The notes under the pieces are model-generated. The model saw only the letters and a program-made list of their open reading frames with translations. It ran no database searches and was not told the DNA's origin. A DNA stretch of 64,000 bases from Marine Group II euryarchaeote MED-G37 (lineage in GTDB: Archaea > Thermoplasmatota > Poseidoniia > Poseidoniales > Thalassarchaeaceae), in assembly GCA_002457555.1 (NCBI GenBank), contig NTJQ01000006.1, positions 4,468 through 68,467 of the forward strand, in the 5' to 3' direction. Numbering within the stretch: the stretch's first letter is position 1; each line of letters begins with the position of its first letter. Below are positions 6,433-41,843 of the stretch, piece after piece. Made by a program: the position numbers and the translations under genes.

Positions 6433-8007
6433 TTAATCGCCTCTTGCCGAGATGACTTGGTCAATCCTTAGCATACTCATGGCCGTCTCAACTGAAGATT
6501 CCAAACCTTCCTCGATAATTGCCCTTGGATGCCAAACTCCCGAAAGTTCTCCTACTTCTCCGTCGACCCTGACTCCCTGTGGTGTAGGTGACTCTTCACG
6601 CGCTACCGCGCGCATCTCTAGAACAGCATCGAGAGGGTCCTTTCCTGAATTGTCGGCTAGCGTTGCAGGTACAGTTTCCATAGCGCGTGCGAAGGCTTCC
6701 ATAGCTAATCTAGCACGTCCAGGTTCGGATTCACTGGCCTTTCTTACTGCGTTTGCGATTCTTGCGTGGGTCGCTCCGCCTCCAGCTAGTAGTTGGCCTT
6801 CTTCGAGTGCTATACTGGTGGCTCTCAAGGCATCATGCAGTCCTCGAATTACCTCCTCTGTTGCGGCTTCTCCAGCGCCGCCAATTGCAAGGGTGACTGT
6901 AGCAGGCGTTTTGCAATCGTCAATGGTGATTACGTCCTCTACTTGATCTGTCGATTGTCGACGCTCCCAGTGAACATTTCCGGCTACTCCGAGGTCGCTT
7001 GCTTCGATATCGATAATTGAGTCGATGACTGTGGCACCGGTTGCAGCAGCCGCGTTATCTAGTTCTGATTCGTCAAGGTCTGATACAGTTAGTATTCCAG
7101 CGTCTGCTAGGTCGTGCAGGATATCTCTGTCGATTTCTCCGCCCGCAAGAATCAGCTTGGCTCCACTATCAATAAGTGATTGTGCTAATTCTTGTTTGCG
7201 GGCTGACTCCGCTTCGACAAACCCATCCAATTGTTCCGCTGATGTAATTTGAATCTCGGCGTCACGAGTCATTTTTCGAATCTTGATATCGCCGCCGAGT
7301 ACCGCGGTTTTTGCATTTTTGAGATTGTTTGGGAAGTTGTCCATTTGGACTCGGCGACGGATTGCTATCCCGCGGATTAGATGGCTATCTCTCAAGCCGC
7401 CTCGACCGATTTTGTACATTGCAATATGTTCCGCTCCTGCTTGCTCGACGTTTGCTTCAACGGCGGTAAGTGCGTCTCGCACCATGGGCGCGAAGACATC
7501 GATTGCTGCTTCTGCGCCCTTGCCGGTGAGAGCAGTTTCCGCTACTCCGATTAGTCTAACATCGTCTACATCGACTGCGTCAGCATCCATTAGTTGAGAT
7601 GCTATTTCCATCGATGTTCTGTATCCGTCAACTAGGGTAAGTGGATGTAGTCCCTTGGAGAGTAGGTTGTTTGCCTCTTCCAATAGTGCTCCACAAAGCA
7701 TCATTGCGGTTGTTACTCCGTCGCCACAGGCTTCCTCCTGTGTATTACCCATGGCGACCATCATTTTTGCAGCGGGATGCTTGACCATCAATTCGGCTAC
7801 TATCTTTGCACCATCGTTTGTAACTGCAGTTGACCCGTCTGTTTTGTAGAGCATTTTGTCTAGCCCTCGAGGCCCATAAGTCGGCTTCAGTAAGTCGGAA
7901 AATACGCGAGATGCAGAGATTAACTTCTCCTGTACCTCAGTTCCACTGGTGATGTTGGTCGAGTCACTAACAACAACCACAGGAGGCTTGCCTTCACCCT
8001 CACTCAT
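6433..8007 (-). CDS. Thermosome (group II chaperonin) subunit, divergent paralog
   Basis: PTYGPRGLDKML, TNDGA, GDGVTT, GGGA motifs; no GGM tail. Probable start ATG 8007. Confidence 0.92.
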   Translation of the reverse strand: MSEGEGKPPVVVVSDSTNITSGTEVQEKLISASRVFSDLLKPTYGPRGLDKMLYKTDGSTAVTNDGAKIVAELMVKHPAAKMMVAMGNTQEEACGDGVTTAMMLCGALLEEANNLLSKGLHPLTLVDGYRTSMEIASQLMDADAVDVDDVRLIGVAETALTGKGAEAAIDVFAPMVRDALTAVEANVEQAGAEHIAMYKIGRGGLRDSHLIRGIAIRRRVQMDNFPNNLKNAKTAVLGGDIKIRKMTRDAEIQITSAEQLDGFVEAESARKQELAQSLIDSGAKLILAGGEIDRDILHDLADAGILTVSDLDESELDNAAAATGATVIDSIIDIEASDLGVAGNVHWERRQSTDQVEDVITIDDCKTPATVTLAIGGAGEAATEEVIRGLHDALRATSIALEEGQLLAGGGATHARIANAVRKASESEPGRARLAMEAFARAMETVPATLADNSGKDPLDAVLEMRAVAREESPTPQGVRVDGEVGELSGVWHPRAIIEEGLESSVETAMSMLRIDQVISARGD

Positions 8008-8084
8008 CGGCTCGCCGACCAATGAGGGCGTCATGAACCCTTGCGAGCCCTCCGAGAGGGCTCAAATATGGGGGTTCAGGGATT

Positions 8085-8438
8085 CTATGCCCACGCTAGG
8101 TTAGAGTCGACCCAGCGGGCTGTGTTCTTTTTGCCAACGAAAATCCAATACAATCCAAGGGTGATTAAAGAAAGAAATAATGTTTTCATCCAGACCATGA
8201 AAAATGAGCCCGCGTTTCCTGTAAATTTGATTCTTTTACCATCAATAAGAGCATTATTTGCCCACGCGTTGTAATACATTACAGTAGTCCATGGGACTGC
8301 AAGGAATAATGTGATTAAATTGATGAGAAAAAGGCCAACTCTAAGCAAAAACATACCTATTCCTGATTCTGCCATCATAATCTTCCAGCTTCCTGGAGTT
8401 GGTGAGGCCGGCTGCATTGCTTGTGGAGTTGTTTCCAT
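8085..8438 (-). CDS. DUF898/YjgN-like small membrane protein
   Basis: IDGKRIKFTG and LITLGLY motifs with TM helices. Confidence 0.7.
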   Translation of the reverse strand: METTPQAMQPASPTPGSWKIMMAESGIGMFLLRVGLFLINLITLFLAVPWTTVMYYNAWANNALIDGKRIKFTGNAGSFFMVWMKTLFLSLITLGLYWIFVGKKNTARWVDSNLAWA

Positions 8439-8525
8439 AATATTGTACTAGTATATCCACGAATAAGATATTCGTAGTGAGTCTTGTGAATTTCAGCGGC
8501 GTCCGTACTTGCCCTTTCGAATGAA

Positions 8526-9677
8526 CTAATCCCACCACTCTTGATCGCTCAACAGCGAAGGGTGGTTTGCTGGGAGGTCTGATTTCCAGTCGTTTGTTTC
8601 AACCACATATGCTGTGTTCCGAGTCTCCACTATGCATGTCCCCTCTTCGTCATACGTCATTCCAACTATGTTCGATGAGTAAACACTCTGAGTCCCTAAT
8701 TCTGGATGGTCGAATGCCTTTCCCACCAAGCCACCATCAATTACGGTGGCTCCAGTCATTTTGATTACTGATTTATCTTTAAGATTCTTCACGGAACCCG
8801 TGCTCTTGATTTTGATTAATTTCTCCGCCTTGTGCATTACACCTAAAGCATCATTTTTGGAATCAAATTCTGATATACCGCACATAGCCATAAAATCCTC
8901 TAAAGTTTTGTCATCATCAATTTCTTGATTATACCAATCGACAATCTGTTGGCCGTCACTCTTGCTGTCCCAGTGTTGAACATCAAAAATATCCAATGGA
9001 GTGGCTTCTGCCTTTTTTCGGTTTGAAGAAGGTTGGATATGGAAGAGAGCTTTCCAAATTACAAGGAATGCTGTAACTGCAATATAGACTCCGATGATTA
9101 TTTGGCTAATCATAATAATTGGGGGTATTACTCCGGAAAAACCCTTCATCAATACTGCTTCATCTGGATTTTTTGGATTATAATACGCACTGGTTTCTGA
9201 ACCTACTGGATAGTCGACGATCATGTCCGGTGAGAATCCGTAGTTACCTTCATCCAAATCAAGGAGAACAATATCGTCATTTGAATATGATTCCCCATCT
9301 ACAAAATAAGAATATTTGATGTATGGGTAATCGTTTCTACTGCATCCGTCTTCACCACATATTTCGTATTCTCTAATCTCTGAAATACTGACTGTTGCCG
9401 GGATTTCTTCCCAATCAGAAGTATTTACTTGATCGTAGAATGTTATTGCATCTGTGCCGACAATAAGCAAACCGACGAAGAAAATTAAGCCGGTTGTACC
9501 GAAATATGTTGATTTAACCTTGGATTTTTCTATTAATGGGATCACTGGAAGCTTCTCTGCTGGTGCTTCAATAAATTGCTTAATGTGACGTGGGCGAATT
9601 TCGAAAAAGAATACTGCGATAAATCCGAAAAATCCCAATGGGATACAAATTTCGAGGATATCTACGATTATGTCCAT
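8526..9677 (-). CDS. DUF3592-like membrane protein with an extra C-terminal domain
   Basis: TM - W..V.ATV..S..Y.Y.VDG..Y..YYNP.NP.EAVL - TM pattern, followed by a soluble tail of about 170 aa. Confidence 0.65.
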   Translation of the reverse strand: MDIIVDILEICIPLGFFGFIAVFFFEIRPRHIKQFIEAPAEKLPVIPLIEKSKVKSTYFGTTGLIFFVGLLIVGTDAITFYDQVNTSDWEEIPATVSISEIREYEICGEDGCSRNDYPYIKYSYFVDGESYSNDDIVLLDLDEGNYGFSPDMIVDYPVGSETSAYYNPKNPDEAVLMKGFSGVIPPIIMISQIIIGVYIAVTAFLVIWKALFHIQPSSNRKKAEATPLDIFDVQHWDSKSDGQQIVDWYNQEIDDDKTLEDFMAMCGISEFDSKNDALGVMHKAEKLIKIKSTGSVKNLKDKSVIKMTGATVIDGGLVGKAFDHPELGTQSVYSSNIVGMTYDEEGTCIVETRNTAYVVETNDWKSDLPANHPSLLSDQEWWD

Positions 9678-34408: not shown

Positions 34409-36598
34409 TTAACGCATCCAACTCGGTGCCCACCAATTCGCCTTACCTAGCAATCTCATGGTCGAAGGTACGACAATTGCTCTGACGATTGTCGCATCGA
34501 CTATTACTGCAACCATCAATGCTAAACCAATTGATTTGATGATTAATACATCAGCGAGGACGAATCCAAAGAATACTGCAACCATGATTGCGGCGGCTCC
34601 TGTAATCAGACTACCTGAGGCTTGTAGTCCCTCTGCAACAGCCTGTGTATTATCGCCTGTCTTTTCCCATGCCTCATGAATTCTAGAAAGCATTAGTACC
34701 TCGTAATCCATCGATAATCCAAAGGCTATTCCGAATACTAGAGGGGGTACTGTTAGGTCAATTGGTTGGGCCGAATAATTTAGCAATCCGGTTAACAAAC
34801 CGTCTTGGAATACTAGGACGATTATTCCGAAGGATGCAGATACTGAGAGAATGTTCATCATGATTGCTTTAACTGGTACTAGGATTGATCTGACTTGAAA
34901 GAAGACGAGGATTATTGTTAGACCTAGGACGAATGCAAGAACGGCCGGGATCCGCTCTACAAGATGGTCTTTGAGTTCGACCTCGAATGCGCTCCATCCT
35001 CCGATTAGTGCTTCGAAGTCTTCCTCGTCTGAGATTTCAATCATATCACGGACGACCCTCTCTGATTCGTCCGAACCACTTCGGTATTGTACAGGTACTG
35101 ACATCCGTAGAATGTTTTCTGATACTGAAGCGAGCCATTCATCTTGGGCTTCGATTGGCCATTGTGAAAATTCTTGTTCGAATAATTCTGTATTGCAGAT
35201 TGGATGATTTACTCCGATAACGCCTTCTATTTCTGCAATGTTTTGGCAATATGGAGAAATGCGCTCAGAATATTCAACACTCATTGGAACGTCGTCGTCA
35301 GCGAATACAATAACGATGGGGATGCTGGATGCTGTATAGGCTGGAAATTCTTCTTCTAGTATTTCGAAACCGATTCTAGATTCCATATCTGGAGGTAGTG
35401 CTTCTATTCCACCAGCACTCATTTCCACTCTTAGGAAAGGTGAGGCGGCTAGTAGTAGAACAACGAGGGCTGGAATTAACCACCTGAGTGGTTTGTCCAT
35501 GACCTTAATTGAGAGTTTTTTCCAAAATTCAGTCTTACGATTGGCTCCGGGAATAGGGACAGGTAATGAATTGATTCTTGGGCCTAAGTATGACAACAGC
35601 GCGGGTAGCACAGTAAACGAATAGAGCATTGCAGCTGCGACCGCAAGGAATGCACCCAGCCCCATGGAAGGCATGTGTGTCGCATCGAAGTAGAATAGGC
35701 TACAGAGGCCGACGGCAACTGTTGCGCCGGAATACATCACTGCTCTTCCTGCAGTATCCATCATAGTTGCAATTGCACTTTCTGTTGATTCTCCTTTTGC
35801 GATTTCTTCGCGGAATCGGCTAATCATGAATAGGCTGTAATCGATTGAAACTGCTATGCCGATTAGTGAAATCATACTGACTGAGTATTCCGTTAGACCG
35901 AAGAACCACCAGTCTGACATCCAGTAACTTATCCCTGTTGCTAGTGCAATCATCAATAGTGCAATGAGAAGTGGTAAAACCGCTGCAGTAAATGTCCCGA
36001 AGACGAATAGAAGGATAATGAGAGAAAGTGGTAAACCTACTACTTCGGCTCTAATTGTGTCATTTTTCATTGCGTTATCAAAGTCATTTCCTATGATTAG
36101 GCTGCCTGTTACGGTTACCTCAAGTGTTTCGCTATCTAGTTTCTTGAGAGATGGAATTTCCTCTGAGAGATCAGCCTCGCTTCCCGCGAGAGAGACGTAA
36201 ACTGCCGTCTTCTTACCGTCCAATGAACTGTGTGTGGCTATTACTTGTTGATTTGTCGGATCGTCATAAATAGTCGATATACTGACTATTTCGAGATTCA
36301 TTTCTCTGATACCCGAGACAAATGACTCTACTGCAATTTGGAATTCTTCTTCTTGCCAAGTCATTTCTTGGTGAGATAGGATATATGTTACGGAGTTTGA
36401 GGCTGAGACTGTAAGTTGTCCGTCGATTAGGTCCAGAGCTCTTCCCGAATCTGTTGTAGGCGGAGGCGCATTTCCATCTATGAAATCCTCGCCCTGACTG
36501 AGAAGGCCAACAGAAAATAGTAGCGATGCTACTGCAAAAACTACTACTGCCTTACGGTTATCGTGGACGTAGAGGCCAAAATTGTAGAGGCGTGACAT
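34409..36598 (-). CDS. MMPL/RND-family transporter
   Basis: IDYSLFMISRFREE, TAGRAVMYSG, GLSMDYEVLMLSRIHE, GKANWWAP motifs; start ATG 36598. Confidence 0.92.
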   Translation of the reverse strand: MSRLYNFGLYVHDNRKAVVVFAVASLLFSVGLLSQGEDFIDGNAPPPTTDSGRALDLIDGQLTVSASNSVTYILSHQEMTWQEEEFQIAVESFVSGIREMNLEIVSISTIYDDPTNQQVIATHSSLDGKKTAVYVSLAGSEADLSEEIPSLKKLDSETLEVTVTGSLIIGNDFDNAMKNDTIRAEVVGLPLSLIILLFVFGTFTAAVLPLLIALLMIALATGISYWMSDWWFFGLTEYSVSMISLIGIAVSIDYSLFMISRFREEIAKGESTESAIATMMDTAGRAVMYSGATVAVGLCSLFYFDATHMPSMGLGAFLAVAAAMLYSFTVLPALLSYLGPRINSLPVPIPGANRKTEFWKKLSIKVMDKPLRWLIPALVVLLLAASPFLRVEMSAGGIEALPPDMESRIGFEILEEEFPAYTASSIPIVIVFADDDVPMSVEYSERISPYCQNIAEIEGVIGVNHPICNTELFEQEFSQWPIEAQDEWLASVSENILRMSVPVQYRSGSDESERVVRDMIEISDEEDFEALIGGWSAFEVELKDHLVERIPAVLAFVLGLTIILVFFQVRSILVPVKAIMMNILSVSASFGIIVLVFQDGLLTGLLNYSAQPIDLTVPPLVFGIAFGLSMDYEVLMLSRIHEAWEKTGDNTQAVAEGLQASGSLITGAAAIMVAVFFGFVLADVLIIKSIGLALMVAVIVDATIVRAIVVPSTMRLLGKANWWAPSWMR

Positions 36599-36657
36599 AT
36601 TACATTTATTTCGCGAACAAATTGTAGTTATAAGCGAATGTTTTTCGGTTTCAAAAT

Positions 36658-37554
36658 TCAGTTGTAGCGTCTGTTCAATTCTGAGAATAATTGACTTGGT
36701 ATTTCCGAACCAATTGACATGCGTTCGCCGTCTGGATGATTGAATGAAAGAGAGGTTGCATGGAGGCATAATCTGTTTACGCTCGCCTTTCCAAACCCAT
36801 GTCTAGTATCTCCTGCAACTGGATAGCCTAGATGTTGCATGTGGAGTCGGATTTGAGCCCTCCTTCCGGTGTCTATTTTGATTTGGATTAGACTATGTTC
36901 GGGGCCCACTTTTTCCTTCTGCCAATGTGTTATGGCCTCTCTACCTCCTCGTCTACCTTTCTCCACCAGTCTGACTCTTTTATCCTTAGTTTCAAGGATG
37001 CGGAGATTTATTGTTCCGCTTTCCTGTGAGGGTTCTCGGTGAACCACTGCGTGATAGATTCGCTCTACTGAGCGGTCTTTGAATTGTTTTTGGAGCATGT
37101 CTTTGGTTTCTGCAGAACGCGCGAATATCATACATCCTGAAGTCTCTCTATCGAGTCTGTGAACTAAATATGTTCGGGTTTTTCCAGTTTCCCATGCCCA
37201 TTTTGCCACTCTGTCGAACATCGTATCTAGTTCCCCTCTGTCGGTAGCAACGGCTAGAAGTCCCGCTGGTTTGTTGGCCAGAATTACTTCTGTATCGTAA
37301 TACAATACCTCGGGCTCGGGAATCGTTTCTTTTGGTTGAGTCAGTGGTTTGTCGCCATCTGCTCTTGAAAGTACTTCTACCAACGAGCCTTTTGGCACTT
37401 TCATATTTGCACGAGTTGCCTTATTTCCATCAACTCGAACTCGACCGTGATCTACCATTCTACGAAGGGAGTTTCGTTTGGCTGTGGGATGAAGCGATGC
37501 CAGAACCTCAAGGAGGATTGTTTCCTCTGTGGTTTCGACACTGGGGTCGGGCAT
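36658..37554 (-). CDS. RluA/RluD-family RNA pseudouridine synthase with S4 domain
   Basis: NKPAGL, HRLDRETSG, TGRRAQIRLH, LCLHA motifs. Confidence 0.92.
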   Translation of the reverse strand: MPDPSVETTEETILLEVLASLHPTAKRNSLRRMVDHGRVRVDGNKATRANMKVPKGSLVEVLSRADGDKPLTQPKETIPEPEVLYYDTEVILANKPAGLLAVATDRGELDTMFDRVAKWAWETGKTRTYLVHRLDRETSGCMIFARSAETKDMLQKQFKDRSVERIYHAVVHREPSQESGTINLRILETKDKRVRLVEKGRRGGREAITHWQKEKVGPEHSLIQIKIDTGRRAQIRLHMQHLGYPVAGDTRHGFGKASVNRLCLHATSLSFNHPDGERMSIGSEIPSQLFSELNRRYN

Positions 37555-37867: not shown

Positions 37868-40225
37868 TTAGTCCTTCCACCATTGGTCATTTTTGGGAAG
37901 GATCTCAAAGTCATCTTGGCTATCCAAAGTGAATCGATTATCTGAGAAAACACGTATGCTCCAGCGGCCCTCGGATTTTTCATAGAATCTTGCTTTGTTC
38001 ACATCTATGTCCCTCAGCCAGTGCCAACGAACACTCTCCTCTCCATAATCGGAGTCTTCGCCGCCACGAGGATAGATACCTACCCAAGCATCGTTGCTAG
38101 TGGGAGGATTGTTGATTCTGAAATACACGCCCTTGTTGGTGGTCGCCTCTAAAATATCGATACTCGATTTTTGACTGCCCTCTTTTTTCCTGTGTCTACT
38201 GCCCCCCCAGATCATTAACAGGCTGATTAACGCGATGGAGCTAAGGCCCGTCATGATTGAGCCGCCAATTATCATACCGATGGCTCCAATGACTTCTTCT
38301 CCATCTTGGATCCACATGACGGCGGCTTTTGAGCCATCAGAATATTCTGCACTAATCGTTGTGGTGCCTTTCATACAACCGTGGCATGCTTGTCCCATTT
38401 TGATGAGGTTTCTTCCTTCGGGATGTTTGTGTTCGACGGGATTGCTGGATTCGCATTCGCCAAGTTCGAACACTTGTCGACTTTCATCTGAAGGGTTGGC
38501 TTTCTGATACCCCGTCCATGGGTCAGACATCCAGCTTCCTGAGTGGGTGGCGTTAACGATGATGTTCTCACAGTGGTCATAGATGCCGTTATTATCGGAG
38601 TCTTCCAGTACAGCCTCGATGAAAATGATGAATCCCTGATCGCCCATGTCATCTACATCTAAAATTTCCAGAGTGGCATTGTTTTCAGATTGGACTACGA
38701 ATGAGTTGACTGAAATAGACCCGATGACAAGCAGGGTTACGCCGGGAATCAAGAGTAATACGGCGAACACGGCCGCGAATTTTATCCACCGAGGAGCGGG
38801 CTTGCCGGATTCAGCATTAGATCTGGTCCGCGAAGATATGAAGACAAACCAAGAGCCCACTGCCAAGAATGCGCCAACGCCAGTTAGAATCGCGCCCGGA
38901 ATTATCATTCCAAGATTATCCTCGCCTGTTGAGCCGGTTCCGATGATAAGAAGCGGTAAACCGGGAAGCATCAAGAATATACCGAATAAAGCCGCGAATC
39001 CTATTCTTCCGCGCCCTGGCTTTTCAGCCGTCTCATCAAGCGGTTGAGACGCAACAGTCTGAGTTGTATGGTGACTAGTCGAAGCTGCCGCAGGGAAGGG
39101 GGACTCGCCGTGTGGCTTGTTGTGCGCCGAGTGGATGGTGAAATCTTTTCTTTCGACCAGTGTGAATCCGCCGTCCGAGAAGACACGAATGTTCCAATCG
39201 CCTTCAGCCCGCCCCCCGTTTGATAACGATACGTTGTTCGCGTCGATGTCCCTGATGTATTTCCACCGTTGATTATGCGCCCCATGATCCTGATCGGGTG
39301 CGCCCGTTGGATAGATGCCGACCCAAGCATCGTTGTGGTTTGGGGGATTGTTGATTTTGAAACGCACAGGTTTGTCGGGTACTGCTTCTAAAATTTCAAT
39401 GGATTCTTGCCACCTGGCGGGAGCACGCTCTTGAATTTTAGTCGTAGCTTCGGCCGGGTGATAGAGTGTTGGTGCCGGATGTTTACCGCCAGGTGCGCCC
39501 GGATTTCCCCATGAGTCGACAGTTTCCCACCCGCCTTCACGCGGTGGAACCCCGATCTTTCCACCGGTATGCGCAGCATAGAGGACCCCAATTTTTGAGA
39601 TGATCATCCACTTGTTCCACTCCGGGCGTTGATGGGCCGATCCGCAGTCTTGGAAGGCGATGAAAATCTCAGGGTTCTGAGTATGCTGGTAATGGCCAGC
39701 GATAGTGCCCCAGTGTCTATTCTCATGTTTGCCCGGCACGAACTCGTAGTTCCCGTTCACTTCCGAGCTTCCGGCTTGAGCGACGATTACATACGAGGGC
39801 ATCGATGCTGTAGTTGTTGCAGGTTGTTGTTGACCTGTACCGCCCTGATTTACGATCTGAATATCTTCCCAACCTCCTCTTGGCGCATGATCCCGGTTCC
39901 ATTGTGCTGTGCCATTTTGCTGGGCACTCAGGTACTTCCCGTGACACGATTTCAAACAGACGACACCGTTGTCACGGAGTTCGGCCGTGAACTCTTCCCA
40001 GCCCCCCGGTGGTGCCGCATCGCGATTGATTTGCACACTACCGTCGTGCTGTGCTGAAACGTACTTGCCGTGCGCACCCCTGAGCGTGATTTTGCCGCCC
40101 GGCCGCTCCTCGATATGGAAATACTCCCACGCATTTGCCACATCACGGTTCCATTCCGCACGCCCGTCGGGCTGAGCGCTCAGGTACTTCCCGTGGACGC
40201 TTCGGAGCGACACGGTTCCTTGCAT
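37868..40225 (-). CDS. Multidomain membrane protein with an N-terminal fascin-like beta-trefoil and duplicated Ig/SKICH-like domains
   Basis: Three L(R/K)xxHGKY(L/V)SAQxxG...NRD...WE repeats, two INNPPxxNDAWVGIYP domains, 4 TM helices. Confidence 0.8.
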   Translation of the reverse strand: MQGTVSLRSVHGKYLSAQPDGRAEWNRDVANAWEYFHIEERPGGKITLRGAHGKYVSAQHDGSVQINRDAAPPGGWEEFTAELRDNGVVCLKSCHGKYLSAQQNGTAQWNRDHAPRGGWEDIQIVNQGGTGQQQPATTTASMPSYVIVAQAGSSEVNGNYEFVPGKHENRHWGTIAGHYQHTQNPEIFIAFQDCGSAHQRPEWNKWMIISKIGVLYAAHTGGKIGVPPREGGWETVDSWGNPGAPGGKHPAPTLYHPAEATTKIQERAPARWQESIEILEAVPDKPVRFKINNPPNHNDAWVGIYPTGAPDQDHGAHNQRWKYIRDIDANNVSLSNGGRAEGDWNIRVFSDGGFTLVERKDFTIHSAHNKPHGESPFPAAASTSHHTTQTVASQPLDETAEKPGRGRIGFAALFGIFLMLPGLPLLIIGTGSTGEDNLGMIIPGAILTGVGAFLAVGSWFVFISSRTRSNAESGKPAPRWIKFAAVFAVLLLIPGVTLLVIGSISVNSFVVQSENNATLEILDVDDMGDQGFIIFIEAVLEDSDNNGIYDHCENIIVNATHSGSWMSDPWTGYQKANPSDESRQVFELGECESSNPVEHKHPEGRNLIKMGQACHGCMKGTTTISAEYSDGSKAAVMWIQDGEEVIGAIGMIIGGSIMTGLSSIALISLLMIWGGSRHRKKEGSQKSSIDILEATTNKGVYFRINNPPTSNDAWVGIYPRGGEDSDYGEESVRWHWLRDIDVNKARFYEKSEGRWSIRVFSDNRFTLDSQDDFEILPKNDQWWKD

Positions 40226-40322
40226 GATTTGTCGTAAATAGAAGAGAATAAGGATGTTGTTGAGGGGCTTTCAATACAAACAACTTCAATTGAATCGGGC
40301 AATACAACATGCTGTGGGAGGT

Positions 40323-41843
40323 ATGTCCTTGGACTCATTGGACTGGCGGGAGCGCTTCGTCGAGGAAACGCCTGGAGACAGTGTCTCGGGGGGTGGGCCT
40401 AGGCAAGTCCCCGGTGCTTGTTGGTCGAAAGTCGAACCTTCTCCTGTTCCGAATCCGACTCTCAGACTATGGTCGGATGAACTGGCTGAGATCTTAGGAA
40501 TAGAAAGGGGAGGGGAGGTGTTTCTTGGAGGTAACAGAATAGCCGATGGAATGTCCCCCTATGCGCAACGATACGGGGGTCATCAATTCGGAAATTGGGC
40601 CGGACAACTAGGTGATGGGCGAGCGATTACATTAGGAGAAGTTGATACTGGTGAGCAGATTCTAGAATTACAGCTCAAAGGTTCTGGCGTCACTCCTTAT
40701 TCTCGCTTTGCTGATGGGAAGGCGGTACTCCGTTCCTCGATACGAGAGTTTCTCTGTAGCGAAGCGATGCATCATCTTGGAGTCCCTACCACCCGCGCAT
40801 TGTCACTGGTCACAACGGGTGAAGATGTAGTGCGAGATATTCTCTACAACGGGAATCCTGCTCCTGAAGACGGAGCGATTGTTTGTAGGGTTGCTCCGAG
40901 TTTCATTCGATTTGGGAGCTTTCAGATTCATGCAATGGATGGAAATAGAAGTGCGCTGCAGGCTCTTGTTAAACACACTGTGAAACATCATTTTAACGGA
41001 CATTCGATGGAGGATGATGATGGCATACTCAAGTGGACAAAACACATCGCAAGAGTGACTGCTTTGATGATTGCACATTGGATGAGAGTCGGTTTTGTTC
41101 ATGGAGTAATGAATACTGACAATATGTCTATTCATGGCTTAACCATCGATTATGGCCCCTACGGATGGATTGAGGACTTCGACCTCGGATGGACCCCCAA
41201 TACGACCGACGCTGGGAGAAAAAGATACAGATTTGGAAATCAGGCCGACATTGGAGGCTGGAATATTGCTCGTTTTTTGGAGGCGGTTTCTCCTTTGATG
41301 GAAAGGCCTGAGAAACTTAACGATGTAATGGATGTTTACTATCAGGAATACCAAGAGGTTCACACAAGAATGTGGATGGATAAGATAGGGGTCGATGATT
41401 ACAAACAAAATGAAATCGATTTGGTTGCAGACCTGATTCCGCTACTGGAGTCTTCTAATATCGACATGACTATTTTTTTCCGATTGTTGTCGAATCTAGA
41501 AGCCCCGGATGTGGGGCTGCTAAATTTCGCATTCTACTCTCCTGAGAAAATCCCTGTGAAGAAATGGAATGAATGGGTGAATAGATGGTGGGAGTGTACG
41601 AAGGGCGCACCAAATAGAGGAAAAATGAGGAGTGTTAATCCTAAATTTGTCCTAAGAAATTGGATGGCTCAATTGGCCATAGATGCCGCAGAAAAGGGCG
41701 ATTATACTGTTGCGGAAGAACTCCATCATTTACTAAAATCACCATATGCAGAGCAGTCGGAATACGAATCGAAGTGGTTCCATAAGAGACCAGAGTGGGC
41801 TGATCATAGGGTTGGTTGTTCGATGCTTTCCTGCTCAAGCTGA
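40323..41843 (+). CDS. selO: SelO/YdiU protein adenylyltransferase
   Basis: YGGHQFGNWAGQLGDGR, QLKGSG.TPYSR, HGVMNTDN, DYGPY motifs; ends in CSMLSCSS. Confidence 0.93.
   Translation: MSLDSLDWRERFVEETPGDSVSGGGPRQVPGACWSKVEPSPVPNPTLRLWSDELAEILGIERGGEVFLGGNRIADGMSPYAQRYGGHQFGNWAGQLGDGRAITLGEVDTGEQILELQLKGSGVTPYSRFADGKAVLRSSIREFLCSEAMHHLGVPTTRALSLVTTGEDVVRDILYNGNPAPEDGAIVCRVAPSFIRFGSFQIHAMDGNRSALQALVKHTVKHHFNGHSMEDDDGILKWTKHIARVTALMIAHWMRVGFVHGVMNTDNMSIHGLTIDYGPYGWIEDFDLGWTPNTTDAGRKRYRFGNQADIGGWNIARFLEAVSPLMERPEKLNDVMDVYYQEYQEVHTRMWMDKIGVDDYKQNEIDLVADLIPLLESSNIDMTIFFRLLSNLEAPDVGLLNFAFYSPEKIPVKKWNEWVNRWWECTKGAPNRGKMRSVNPKFVLRNWMAQLAIDAAEKGDYTVAEELHHLLKSPYAEQSEYESKWFHKRPEWADHRVGCSMLSCSS

What the first reader, a model, noticed from the sequence alone, without database searches (positions are those of the whole stretch)
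37868..40225. Membrane protein with a predicted cytoplasmic fascin-like beta-trefoil
Seen: three clear fascin/hisactophilin-type repeats (aa ~1-125) with no signal peptide, then a GAG..VNGxY...PP..GW...PAP-type domain, an Ig-like domain and four TM helices. Basic residues before TM1, between TM2 and TM3, and after TM4 predict N-in/C-in topology, with one external domain carrying NAT sequons. Known: eukaryotic fascins bundle actin, while prokaryotic fascin-like trefoils are usually extracellular glycan-binding modules. Inference: an inward-facing trefoil on a membrane scaffold is unexpected and may organise a cytoskeletal or signalling complex.
Basis: partly seen in the sequence, partly recalled or inferred. 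Interest (0 to 1): 0.65.

Follow-up and report, generated by a model that had tools for sequence, protein, structure and literature searches.

The report
Inward-facing sugar-binding trefoil membrane protein
An uncultured marine archaeon (Marine Group II) makes a four-helix membrane protein whose sugar-binding (not actin-binding) trefoil and other binding modules are predicted to face the cell interior, which is an unusual place for such lectin modules; what they bind there is unknown.

Summary
The ORF (37868-40225, minus strand, 785 aa) is real, conserved and under purifying selection.

N-in/C-in topology holds up. No homologue has a signal peptide. K+R counts across 117 homologues follow the positive-inside rule. 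In 666 module occurrences with permuted TM orders, the binding modules always lie on the side opposite the external domain. That domain also occurs alone behind an N-terminal signal anchor.

The cytoskeleton reading does not hold up. The trefoil belongs to CBM92, the bacterial fascin-like sugar-binding family. It superposes on CBM92 at 1.5 A, and the glucose-binding Trp/Glu/Arg of all three lobes are invariant in 108 family trefoils. Hao et al. 2024 place proteins of this archaeal family in CBM92 and report beta-1,6-glucan binding for every domain assayed, one of them archaeal. The 79%-complete genome has no actin or MreB gene.

Paralogues swap in a Cys-free C-type lectin, a beta-tripod and PG_binding_1 on the same side.

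Best reading: a non-enzymatic membrane adaptor carrying cytoplasmic lectin modules; ligand unknown.

The parts
37868..40225 (-). Whole gene, 785 aa, probably monocistronic. It lies between an RluA-type pseudouridine synthase and a divergent SelO gene.
   Evidence: The same locus in related genomes holds other architectures of the family.
39851..40225 (-). aa 1-125: CBM92-type (fascin-superfamily) beta-trefoil. Sugar-site motifs: WEYF 33-36, WEEF 76-79, WEDI 119-122, with Arg 27, 68 and 111. Predicted cytoplasmic.
   Evidence: PMC11039641
39461..39799 (-). aa 143-255: 'GNY' domain (AGSSEVNGNYEF...VPPREGGWE...HPAP). It is the most conserved part of the protein (90% mean pairwise identity). No known relative, and AF2 did not model it.
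39131..39403 (-). aa 275-365: Ig-like beta-sandwich, copy 1 (NNPPxxNDAWVGIYP...W.Y.RDID.N..S...G.W.IRVFSDGG). This domain family was found only in Poseidoniales.
38822..39013 (-). aa 405-468: TM1-TM2 hairpin joined by a short acidic external loop (STGEDNLG).
38708..38788 (-). aa 480-506: TM3, preceded by a basic cytoplasmic loop (SSRTRSNAESGKPAPRWIK).
38297..38707 (-). aa 507-643: the only external domain ('EXT'). A beta-sandwich with four invariant Cys (552, 591, 614, 617) and two acidic DxDxxGD / DSDNNGIYD loops. No known relative.
38198..38296 (-). aa 644-676: TM4, followed by SRHRKKEGSQK.
37898..38164 (-). aa 688-776: Ig-like beta-sandwich, copy 2. Cytoplasmic, pLDDT 81-92.
37871..37897 (-). 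aa 777-785: C-terminal tail PKNDQWWKD. An [FW]W motif within the last 8 residues occurs in 145 of 196 family proteins longer than 500 aa, and in some stand-alone EXT proteins.

Best explanation
The gene encodes a non-enzymatic, polytopic membrane adaptor of a Marine Group IIb (Thalassarchaeaceae) archaeon.

Shown or strongly predicted:
- The N-terminal ~400 residues (trefoil, GNY, Ig) and the C-terminal ~100 residues (Ig, WW tail) lie on one side of the membrane, and that side is the cytoplasm.
- Only a 137-residue Cys4 beta-sandwich between TM3 and TM4 is outside.
- The trefoil is a CBM92-family trivalent lectin. Each lobe has a Trp platform, a Glu that would hydrogen-bond O3/O4 of a terminal glucose, and a flanking Arg.

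Inferred:
- The protein tethers a multivalent glucoside-binding head, on flexible Q/T/P-rich linkers, to the inner face of the membrane and couples it physically to an exposed ectodomain.
- Inside the cell it binds a glucose-terminated ligand. Candidates are glycolipid head groups or lipid-linked oligosaccharides on the inner leaflet, or a soluble beta-glucoside or glucan.
- The conserved C-terminal WW tail recruits a partner protein.
- Alleles and paralogues exchange the cytoplasmic modules (Cys-free EPN C-type lectin, beta-tripod, PG_binding_1, extra Ig copies), which changes the ligand set.

It does not bundle or anchor actin-like filaments.
For: Topology:
- No signal peptide or hydrophobic N-terminus in any homologue.
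- Mean K+R in 117 four-TM homologues: 3.5, 3.7 and 2.4 in the three predicted inside flanks against 0.35 and 1.05 in the two outside loops.
- Parity test over 315 family proteins, including permuted (TM-EXT-TM-TM-TM), 6-TM and 2-TM forms: 666 module occurrences lie opposite EXT. The 5 exceptions are artefacts of TM4 being split in two.
- Stand-alone EXT proteins begin MHI(A/V)GK followed by a TM signal anchor, so EXT is the exported part.
- EXT has 4 invariant Cys. The C-type lectin on the other side has lost all four canonical Cys in 23 of 28 copies while keeping EPN..EN..WND in 27 of 28.
- Proteins with the same modules exist with no TM and no signal peptide, for example G000 C19:31675-33489 and P0172.

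Sugar binding:
- Best PDB matches by sequence are CBM92 7zoi/7zoh, E 1e-11.
- Foldseek gives TM 0.86-0.89, rmsd 1.5-1.7 A, 30-32% identity to the CBM92 entries.
- W, E and R of all three sites are invariant in 108 unique family trefoils, with one W-to-G exception in the gamma lobe.
- PMC11039641 defines these residues as the binding site.
- The paper lists Poseidoniales and 'Euryarchaeota archaeon' proteins of this family in CBM92. Its Ear1058, MBV23397.1, is P0320 in the P0076 cluster.
- It assayed EaCBM92A (MBS73237.1, aa 119-254) and reports that the domains tested bind beta-1,6-linked glucans.

Real, constrained gene:
- dN/dS is 0.13 for the trefoil and about 0.3 overall.
- No enzymatic or known effector domain was found.
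Against: - No dedicated topology predictor could be run. Orientation rests on the positive-inside rule, the lack of a signal peptide, Cys patterns and architecture logic.
- Every recognisable module on the 'inside' (CBM92, Ca-dependent EPN C-type lectin, PG_binding_1, beta-tripod) is typically extracellular, and an EPN lectin needs Ca2+, which is normally scarce in cytoplasm.
- An N-x-S/T triplet in Ig copy 1 is kept in 64 of 65 sequences. This could be a glycosylation sequon and so argue for an outside location, or it could be structural.
- No cytoplasmic ligand is identified.
- I could not read the EaCBM92A sequence, so its identity to this trefoil is inferred from domain position (119-254 against 122-254 in P0123) and from the shared family.
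- The GNY domain, the most conserved part, is entirely unexplained.
Confidence: 0.55

Rival explanations
1. The lectin modules are really outside. The protein would be a surface glycan catcher, for example for algal laminarin, which CBM92 modules bind, and the Cys4 domain would be the cytoplasmic part.
For: - CBM92, EPN C-type lectin, PG_binding_1 and beta-tripod modules are normally extracellular (PMC11039641; PMC7613979).
- Laminarin is a CBM92 ligand.
- A conserved N-x-S sits in Ig copy 1.
- MGII archaea are heterotrophs associated with phytoplankton-derived matter (general knowledge).
Against: - It would require export of 400-700 folded N-terminal residues without any signal peptide.
- It would reverse the positive-inside bias at all five flanks.
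- It would place a 4-Cys domain with DxDxDG-like loops, one that sits directly behind a signal anchor in the stand-alone forms, in the cytoplasm.
- It would leave the Cys-free C-type lectin unexplained.
- Soluble proteins without a signal peptide carry the same modules.
- The recovered genome has no GH16, GH3 or GH17 to use beta-glucan (the GH17 search had no working control).
Confidence: 0.12
2. A conflict or immune sensor. Variable cytoplasmic binding modules would recognise an invader component, such as a glycosylated viral molecule, and the TM module would act as the effector or signal relay.
For: - Patchy distribution: 72 of 201 Poseidoniales genomes, and 10 of 16 in the same genus.
- Different architectures at one conserved locus.
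- dS is mosaic along the gene, 0.08-0.87 between domains for one pair, which indicates recombination.
- Many family genes sit at contig ends.
Against: - No PADLOC hit.
- No nuclease, protease, NTPase or pore-forming domain. The holin-like hit is far below cut-off.
- Neighbours are housekeeping genes.
- The cytoplasmic 'sensor' modules are the most conserved parts (87-90% identity, dN/dS 0.13-0.2) rather than diversifying.
Confidence: 0.1
3. One reading: an inward-facing fascin- or hisactophilin-like trefoil that binds actin-like filaments and organises a cytoskeletal or signalling complex at the membrane.
For: - Pfam Fascin and FRG1 hits.
- Foldseek hits to fascin, E 4e-10.
- Cytoplasmic, membrane-tethered position, like myristoylated hisactophilin (established knowledge).
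Against: - One trefoil, not four.
- Hisactophilin is only a marginal match (E 4e-3), and the trefoil has 6 His in 125 residues, so it is not His-rich.
- The sugar-binding Trp/Glu/Arg residues are invariant.
- Family members are classified as CBM92, and an archaeal domain was assayed as a CBM92.
- No Actin family hit, and the only MreB_Mbl hit is DnaK, in a genome that is 79% complete.
Confidence: 0.04

Closest known systems
CBM92 carbohydrate-binding modules (bacterial fascin-like domains): CpCBM92A/B of Chitinophaga pinensis (PDB 7zoi, 7zoh) and the archaeal EaCBM92A (Hao et al. 2024, PMC11039641)
   Same: - Single ~125-aa beta-trefoil.
- 30-32% identity and 1.5 A rmsd to the solved structures.
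- WExF Trp/Glu plus Arg in all three lobes.
- Proteins of this same MGII family are in the published CBM92 tree.
   Different: - Characterised CBM92s are appended to secreted glycoside hydrolases.
- This one is the N-terminus of a polytopic membrane protein with no enzyme domain and no signal peptide, and it is predicted to face the cytoplasm.
- The third motif reads WEDI in this protein.
Fascin and hisactophilin (eukaryotic actin-binding beta-trefoils)
   Same: - Same Pfam superfamily and fold.
- Hisactophilin is likewise a single trefoil held at the inner face of a membrane.
   Different: - Fascin needs four trefoils to form its actin-binding sites.
- Hisactophilin is His-rich and myristoylated.
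- This trefoil keeps sugar-binding residues, and the genome has no actin homologue.
Cytoplasmic lectins of eukaryotes: galectins, and fungal fruiting-body beta-trefoil lectins (from general knowledge, not tested here)
   Same: Lectin folds made without a signal peptide and living in a reducing compartment, with disulfides dispensed with.
   Different: - Those lectins are soluble, and they act on glycans exposed by membrane damage or on a predator's glycans after ingestion.
- This protein is integral to the membrane, archaeal, and coupled to an ectodomain.
CDC50 / TM-ectodomain-TM accessory subunits (Foldseek E 2e-3 to 7e-3, rmsd 13-15 A)
   Same: Two TM helices bracket a disulfide-containing beta-sandwich ectodomain, with both termini cytoplasmic.
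   Different: There is no convincing fold or sequence relationship. This is a similarity of layout only.
SKICH / fn3_PAP-type Ig-like domains (DW[IV]G[IV][FY] motif)
   Same: Small beta-sandwich with a DAWVGIYP strand-loop motif. One of 15 members gives Pfam SKICH at E=0.075, and one gives fn3_PAP at E=0.013.
   Different: - The matches are not significant.
- SKICH is absent from the top 50 Foldseek PDB hits.
- The domain family occurs only in Poseidoniales.

Membership tests
CBM92 (carbohydrate-binding module family 92) | Beta-trefoil fold of ~125-150 aa with three subdomains | tested here: met
   AF2 pLDDT 80-89. Foldseek against 7zoh/7zoi/7zon gives TM 0.86-0.89 and rmsd 1.5-1.7 A.
CBM92 (carbohydrate-binding module family 92) | WExF motif (Trp + Glu) at the end of each subdomain, with a nearby Arg | tested here: met
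   WEYF 33-36, WEEF 76-79 and WEDI 119-122, with R27, R68 and R111. W, E and R are invariant in 108 family trefoils apart from one W-to-G exception. The fourth position of lobe 3 is I, L or F.
CBM92 (carbohydrate-binding module family 92) | Significant sequence similarity to founding members; inclusion in the family's phylogeny | tested here: met
   phmmer E 1e-11 to 7zoi_A. MBV23397.1, 'Ear1058' in the paper's table, is P0320, which is in the cluster of P0076, a family member.
CBM92 (carbohydrate-binding module family 92) | Binding to Glc-beta-1,6-Glc-containing glycans | not testable with these tools
   The paper assayed EaCBM92A (MBS73237.1, aa 119-254) and reports binding for the domains tested. 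Nothing was assayed for this protein.
CBM92 (carbohydrate-binding module family 92) | Usual context: secreted, appended to a CAZyme (typical, not defining) | tested here: not met
   No signal peptide, no GH domain, predicted cytoplasmic.
Fascin (actin-bundling protein) | Four tandem trefoils forming inter-domain actin-binding sites | tested here: not met
   One trefoil only, and it is the only Fascin-family match in the genome.
Fascin (actin-bundling protein) | An actin-type filament partner in the organism | tested here: not met
   No PF00022 hit. The single PF06723 hit is DnaK. The genome is 79% complete.
Hisactophilin | His-rich pH-sensing surface; N-myristoylation | tested here: not met
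   6 His in 125 residues. Sequence match only E 4e-3. Whether the organism can myristoylate proteins was not tested here.
SKICH domain (for the Ig-like repeats) | Match to Pfam PF17751 or structural match to solved SKICH domains | tested here: inconclusive
   E=0.075 in 1 of 15 members. No PDB profile hit. No SKICH among the top 50 Foldseek hits for the aa 478-785 model.
C-type lectin, Ca-dependent EPN type (paralogues only, not this protein) | EPN...E-N...WND Ca/sugar site; two conserved disulfides | tested here: inconclusive
   Pfam Lectin_C E 2e-15. The site motif is kept in 27 of 28 copies, but the canonical Cys are absent in 23 of 28.

The most novel reading that the evidence does not exclude
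Marine Group II archaea have a lineage-specific, recombining toolkit of intracellular lectin modules mounted on membrane anchors: CBM92 trefoil, Cys-free Ca-type C-type lectin, beta-tripod and PG_binding_1, together with orphan GNY, Ig and GLYAY domains. These modules would read glucose-terminated molecules at the inner face of the membrane. The targets could be the cell's own gentiobiosyl-type glycolipids or lipid-linked glycans, giving membrane-domain organisation. Alternatively they could be glucosylated invader molecules, giving an immune sensor. Either would be a cytoplasmic glycan-recognition system in a prokaryote.
Probability: 0.12. Interest if true: 0.85.

Novelty: new variant of a known kind. 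Interest (0 to 1): 0.55.

Why it matters
CBM92 and C-type lectin modules are treated as extracellular tools for capturing polysaccharides. Here a whole set of them, with binding residues intact and disulfides removed, appears to be held on the cytoplasmic face of the membrane in one of the ocean's most abundant and still uncultured archaeal groups.

If the topology is right, these cells have an intracellular glycan ligand, or an intracellular glycan-sensing function, that nobody has described. The family would also be a clean natural example of module shuffling at a single locus.

The finding also corrects the tempting 'archaeal fascin / cytoskeleton' annotation. NCBI already labels some homologues 'fascin domain-containing protein' or 'Vps62-related protein'.

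Tried and rejected
- Actin/MreB search of the genome: only DnaK was found.
- NCBIfam and PADLOC scans: nothing significant.
- Rfam scan of the locus on both strands: nothing.
- GNY domain:
  - No Pfam or PDB profile hit.
  - AF2 pLDDT below 50.
  - A region-restricted homologue search returned 188 proteins; the 120 listed are members of the same family and the named ones are MGII.
  - hhalign to the 'GNY2' domain gave probability 2%, so the two are not demonstrably related.
- EXT domain: no Pfam or PDB hit. Foldseek returned only layout-level matches to the Epf adhesin, CD4 and CDC50, with rmsd 13-31 A.
- Ig domain as SKICH: not confirmed.
- Context of stand-alone EXT genes: neighbours are variable housekeeping genes with no conserved operon.
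- Beta-glucan utilisation genes GH16, GH3 and GH17: none found, though the GH17 search had no working control.
- Literature searches for archaeal fascin or MGII lectins found nothing besides the CBM92 paper.
- One call was a mistaken empty request.
Full report
**1. The observation**

The minus-strand ORF 37868-40225 encodes 785 aa. No alternative start codon lies upstream before the stop. Homologues start at the same M(Q/N)GTVSLRS.

Pfam gives Fascin PF06268 at E=1.9e-13, above the gathering score. Weaker trefoil families (DUF7910, DUF569, FRG1) match over aa 5-125, and nothing else is significant. NCBIfam gives nothing.

Hydropathy finds four TM segments. Basic residues lie before TM1, between TM2 and TM3, and after TM4, and the two other loops are acidic. 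AF2 agrees on four long helices.

A second copy of the Ig-like domain follows TM4 (aa 688-776, 53% identical to aa 275-365). The protein ends in a conserved WW tail.

**2. The organism and the family**

- The window lies in a 1.28-Mb MAG that is 79% complete.
- Homologues are labelled Thalassarchaeaceae, Poseidoniales or 'Euryarchaeota archaeon'.
- 621 related proteins were found at 90% clustering.
- 72 of 201 Poseidoniales genomes, from both families of the order, have a match.
- The Ig-like domain was found only in Poseidoniales, in 19 of 301 Thermoplasmatota genomes sampled.
- Neighbours are housekeeping genes: MMPL, RluA, SelO, PurQ, PurL.

**3. Module grammar and topology**

Family members combine several modules in many orders:
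- the trefoil and the GNY domain;
- a different 'GNY2' domain;
- 1-3 Ig copies;
- a C-type lectin and a Vps62-annotated domain. PMC7613979 describes the Pfam 'Vps62' domains of plant VPS13 as beta-tripods;
- a 'GLYAY' domain;
- PG_binding_1.

The membrane part also varies:
- TM-TM-TM-EXT-TM, as here;
- TM-EXT-TM-TM-TM;
- a 6-TM form with the modules at the C-terminus;
- a 4-TM form without EXT;
- a 2-TM hairpin.

I counted TM helices between modules in 315 proteins. All 666 module occurrences lie on the side opposite EXT. The 5 apparent exceptions come from TM4 being split in two by my window method. So all the binding modules share one compartment and EXT has the other.

Four lines of evidence say which compartment is which:
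- No homologue has a signal peptide.
- K+R averages 3.5, 3.7 and 2.4 in the module-side flanks against 0.35 and 1.05 on the EXT side, in 117 homologues.
- Stand-alone EXT proteins of 226-300 aa, widespread in the order, consist of MHI(A/V)GK, a signal-anchor TM, EXT, a TM and a short tail. EXT is therefore the exported part.
- EXT has four invariant Cys and DxDxxGD / DxDNNGxxD loops. The C-type lectin on the other side has lost all canonical Cys in 23 of 28 copies yet keeps EPN..EN..WND in 27 of 28.

Soluble proteins with no TM and no signal peptide carry the same modules. One is in this genome: EF-hands + GNY2 + an Ig variant, at C19:31675-33489.

I put the cytoplasmic orientation at about 85%. 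The caveats:
- no dedicated topology predictor was available;
- the modules are of types usually found outside cells;
- an N-x-S triplet in Ig copy 1 is conserved in 64 of 65 sequences.

**4. What the trefoil is**

By sequence the best solved relatives are CBM92 modules of a Chitinophaga GH18 (7zoi/7zoh, E about 1e-11). They rank ahead of fascin (2e-7), hisactophilin (4e-3) and FRG1. Structurally the model superposes on CBM92 at TM 0.86-0.89, rmsd 1.5-1.7 A and 30-32% identity. Fascin matches through only one of its four trefoils.

Hao et al. 2024 (PMC11039641) show that each CBM92 lobe binds a terminal glucose. The sugar stacks on the Trp of a WExF motif, its O3 and O4 hydrogen-bond to the Glu, and a nearby Arg helps. 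Trp-to-Ala changes reduce binding.

This protein has WEYF, WEEF and WEDI, and Arg 27, 68 and 111, aligned to those positions. Across 108 unique trefoils of the family, W, E and R are invariant in all three lobes, apart from one W-to-G change in the gamma lobe.

The same paper's phylogeny lists 'Candidatus Poseidoniales archaeon' and 'Euryarchaeota archaeon' proteins of 717-1096 aa. One of them, MBV23397.1, is in the cluster of family member P0076.

The paper also expressed EaCBM92A (MBS73237.1, aa 119-254). This is the position of the trefoil in GLYAY-type members such as P0123. The paper reports that the domains tested bind beta-1,6-linked glucans.

The trefoil is therefore a member of a known sugar-binding family. 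It is under strong purifying selection (dN/dS 0.13).

**5. The cytoskeleton idea**

- There is one trefoil, not four.
- It is not His-rich.
- The genome has no Actin-family hit, and its only MreB_Mbl hit is DnaK.
- Nothing supports filament binding.

**6. The other parts**

- GNY (aa 143-255) is the most conserved segment (90% mean identity). In the searches run it appeared only in this family, whose named members are MGII. It has no Pfam or PDB relative and was not modelled.
- A crop of aa 478-785 modelled well (pLDDT 83). Foldseek found no convincing relative for EXT or for the Ig domain. It returned only generic two-sandwich or TM-ectodomain-TM layouts (Epf, CD4, CDC50) and weak Ig hits.
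It is only a marginal Pfam hit.
- No defence-system model matches.

**7. Evolution at the locus**

In related genomes the same RluA | gene | SelO-PurQ-PurL locus holds different architectures:
- 812 aa and 889 aa forms;
- a 717-aa form with a different 4-TM module and PG_binding_1;
- a 1036-1096-aa form with a C-type lectin and a Vps62-annotated domain.

Synonymous divergence is mosaic along the gene. Against G051, dS is 0.72-0.87 in the trefoil and Ig1 but 0.08-0.13 in GNY, EXT and Ig2. This indicates recombination between alleles or paralogues. Many family genes sit at contig ends.

**8. Mechanism**

Shown:
- the architecture;
- same-side placement of all the binding modules;
- intact CBM92 sites;
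- absence of catalytic domains.

Inferred:
- the cytoplasmic orientation;
- binding of a glucose-terminated ligand at the inner membrane face;
- an adaptor role that links this binding to an exposed ectodomain and, through the WW tail, to a partner protein.

The recovered genome has no GH16 or GH3. The GH17 search had no control that worked. A role in beta-glucan scavenging is therefore not supported, and an endogenous ligand such as a glycolipid head group or a lipid-linked glycan is my preferred guess. That guess is untested.

**9. Verdict**

- Observation: confirmed.
- Interpretation: half right. The inward-facing orientation is supported; the cytoskeletal role is not.
- The trefoil is a member of a known family, CBM92, that already includes these archaeal proteins.
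- What is new is the predicted cytoplasmic, membrane-tethered context and the shuffling set of lectin-type modules.
- Function remains unknown.
- Interest: moderate to high.

Noticed in passing
window 37868-40225 compared with loci L008 and L007: Synonymous divergence is strongly mosaic along the gene. Against G051, dS is 0.72-0.87 in the trefoil and Ig1 but 0.08-0.13 in GNY, EXT and Ig2. This indicates recombination or module exchange within the gene.
   Followed up: partly
L010 (G027:C1:160000-178000), ~7300-9516 minus strand: At the same RluA/SelO locus a relative carries trefoil-GNY-Ig fused to a different Trp-rich 4-TM module and a PG_binding_1 domain (Pfam E 3.8e-13). The archaeon is presumed to lack peptidoglycan. 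This protein also ends in QWWK.
   Followed up: partly
own genome G000 C19:31675-33489 (outside the window): A 605-aa protein with no signal peptide and no clear TM. It has two EF-hand loops, a 'GNY2' domain and a divergent Ig-like domain of the same family, so it looks like a soluble member of the same module network.
   Followed up: partly
L015-L021 (e.g. L017 6209-7030 and 7123-8025, minus strand): Stand-alone TM-EXT-TM proteins (226-300 aa, starting MHI(A/V)GK) are widespread in Poseidoniales and sometimes occur in tandem pairs. Some end in NFWDKV or DNFWDQ, like the long proteins. Their neighbours are not conserved.
   Followed up: partly
paralogues P0088, P0112, P0188 and G184/G054 proteins (not in the window): The C-type lectin domains keep the EPN..EN..WND Ca/sugar site but lack all four canonical cysteines (23 of 28 copies have no Cys). 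This is an unusual disulfide-free C-type lectin.
   Followed up: partly
window 40226-40330: Only 28 nt separate this gene's start from the called start of the divergent SelO gene (40254). A later ATG near 40322 (MSLDSLDW...) may be the true SelO start, which would leave about 95 nt for two promoters.
   Followed up: no
window 36658-36769: The MMPL ORF (34409-36769) overlaps the end of the RluA ORF (36658-37554) by 112 nt as called. The MMPL start is probably further downstream.
   Followed up: no
P0123, P0131, P0099, P0172 (family members, not in the window): A further orphan ~100-aa domain (…GLYAYRSGKYxGxAYFGTGG…YRPWNR…) recurs at either end of family proteins, always on the lectin-module side.
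   Followed up: no
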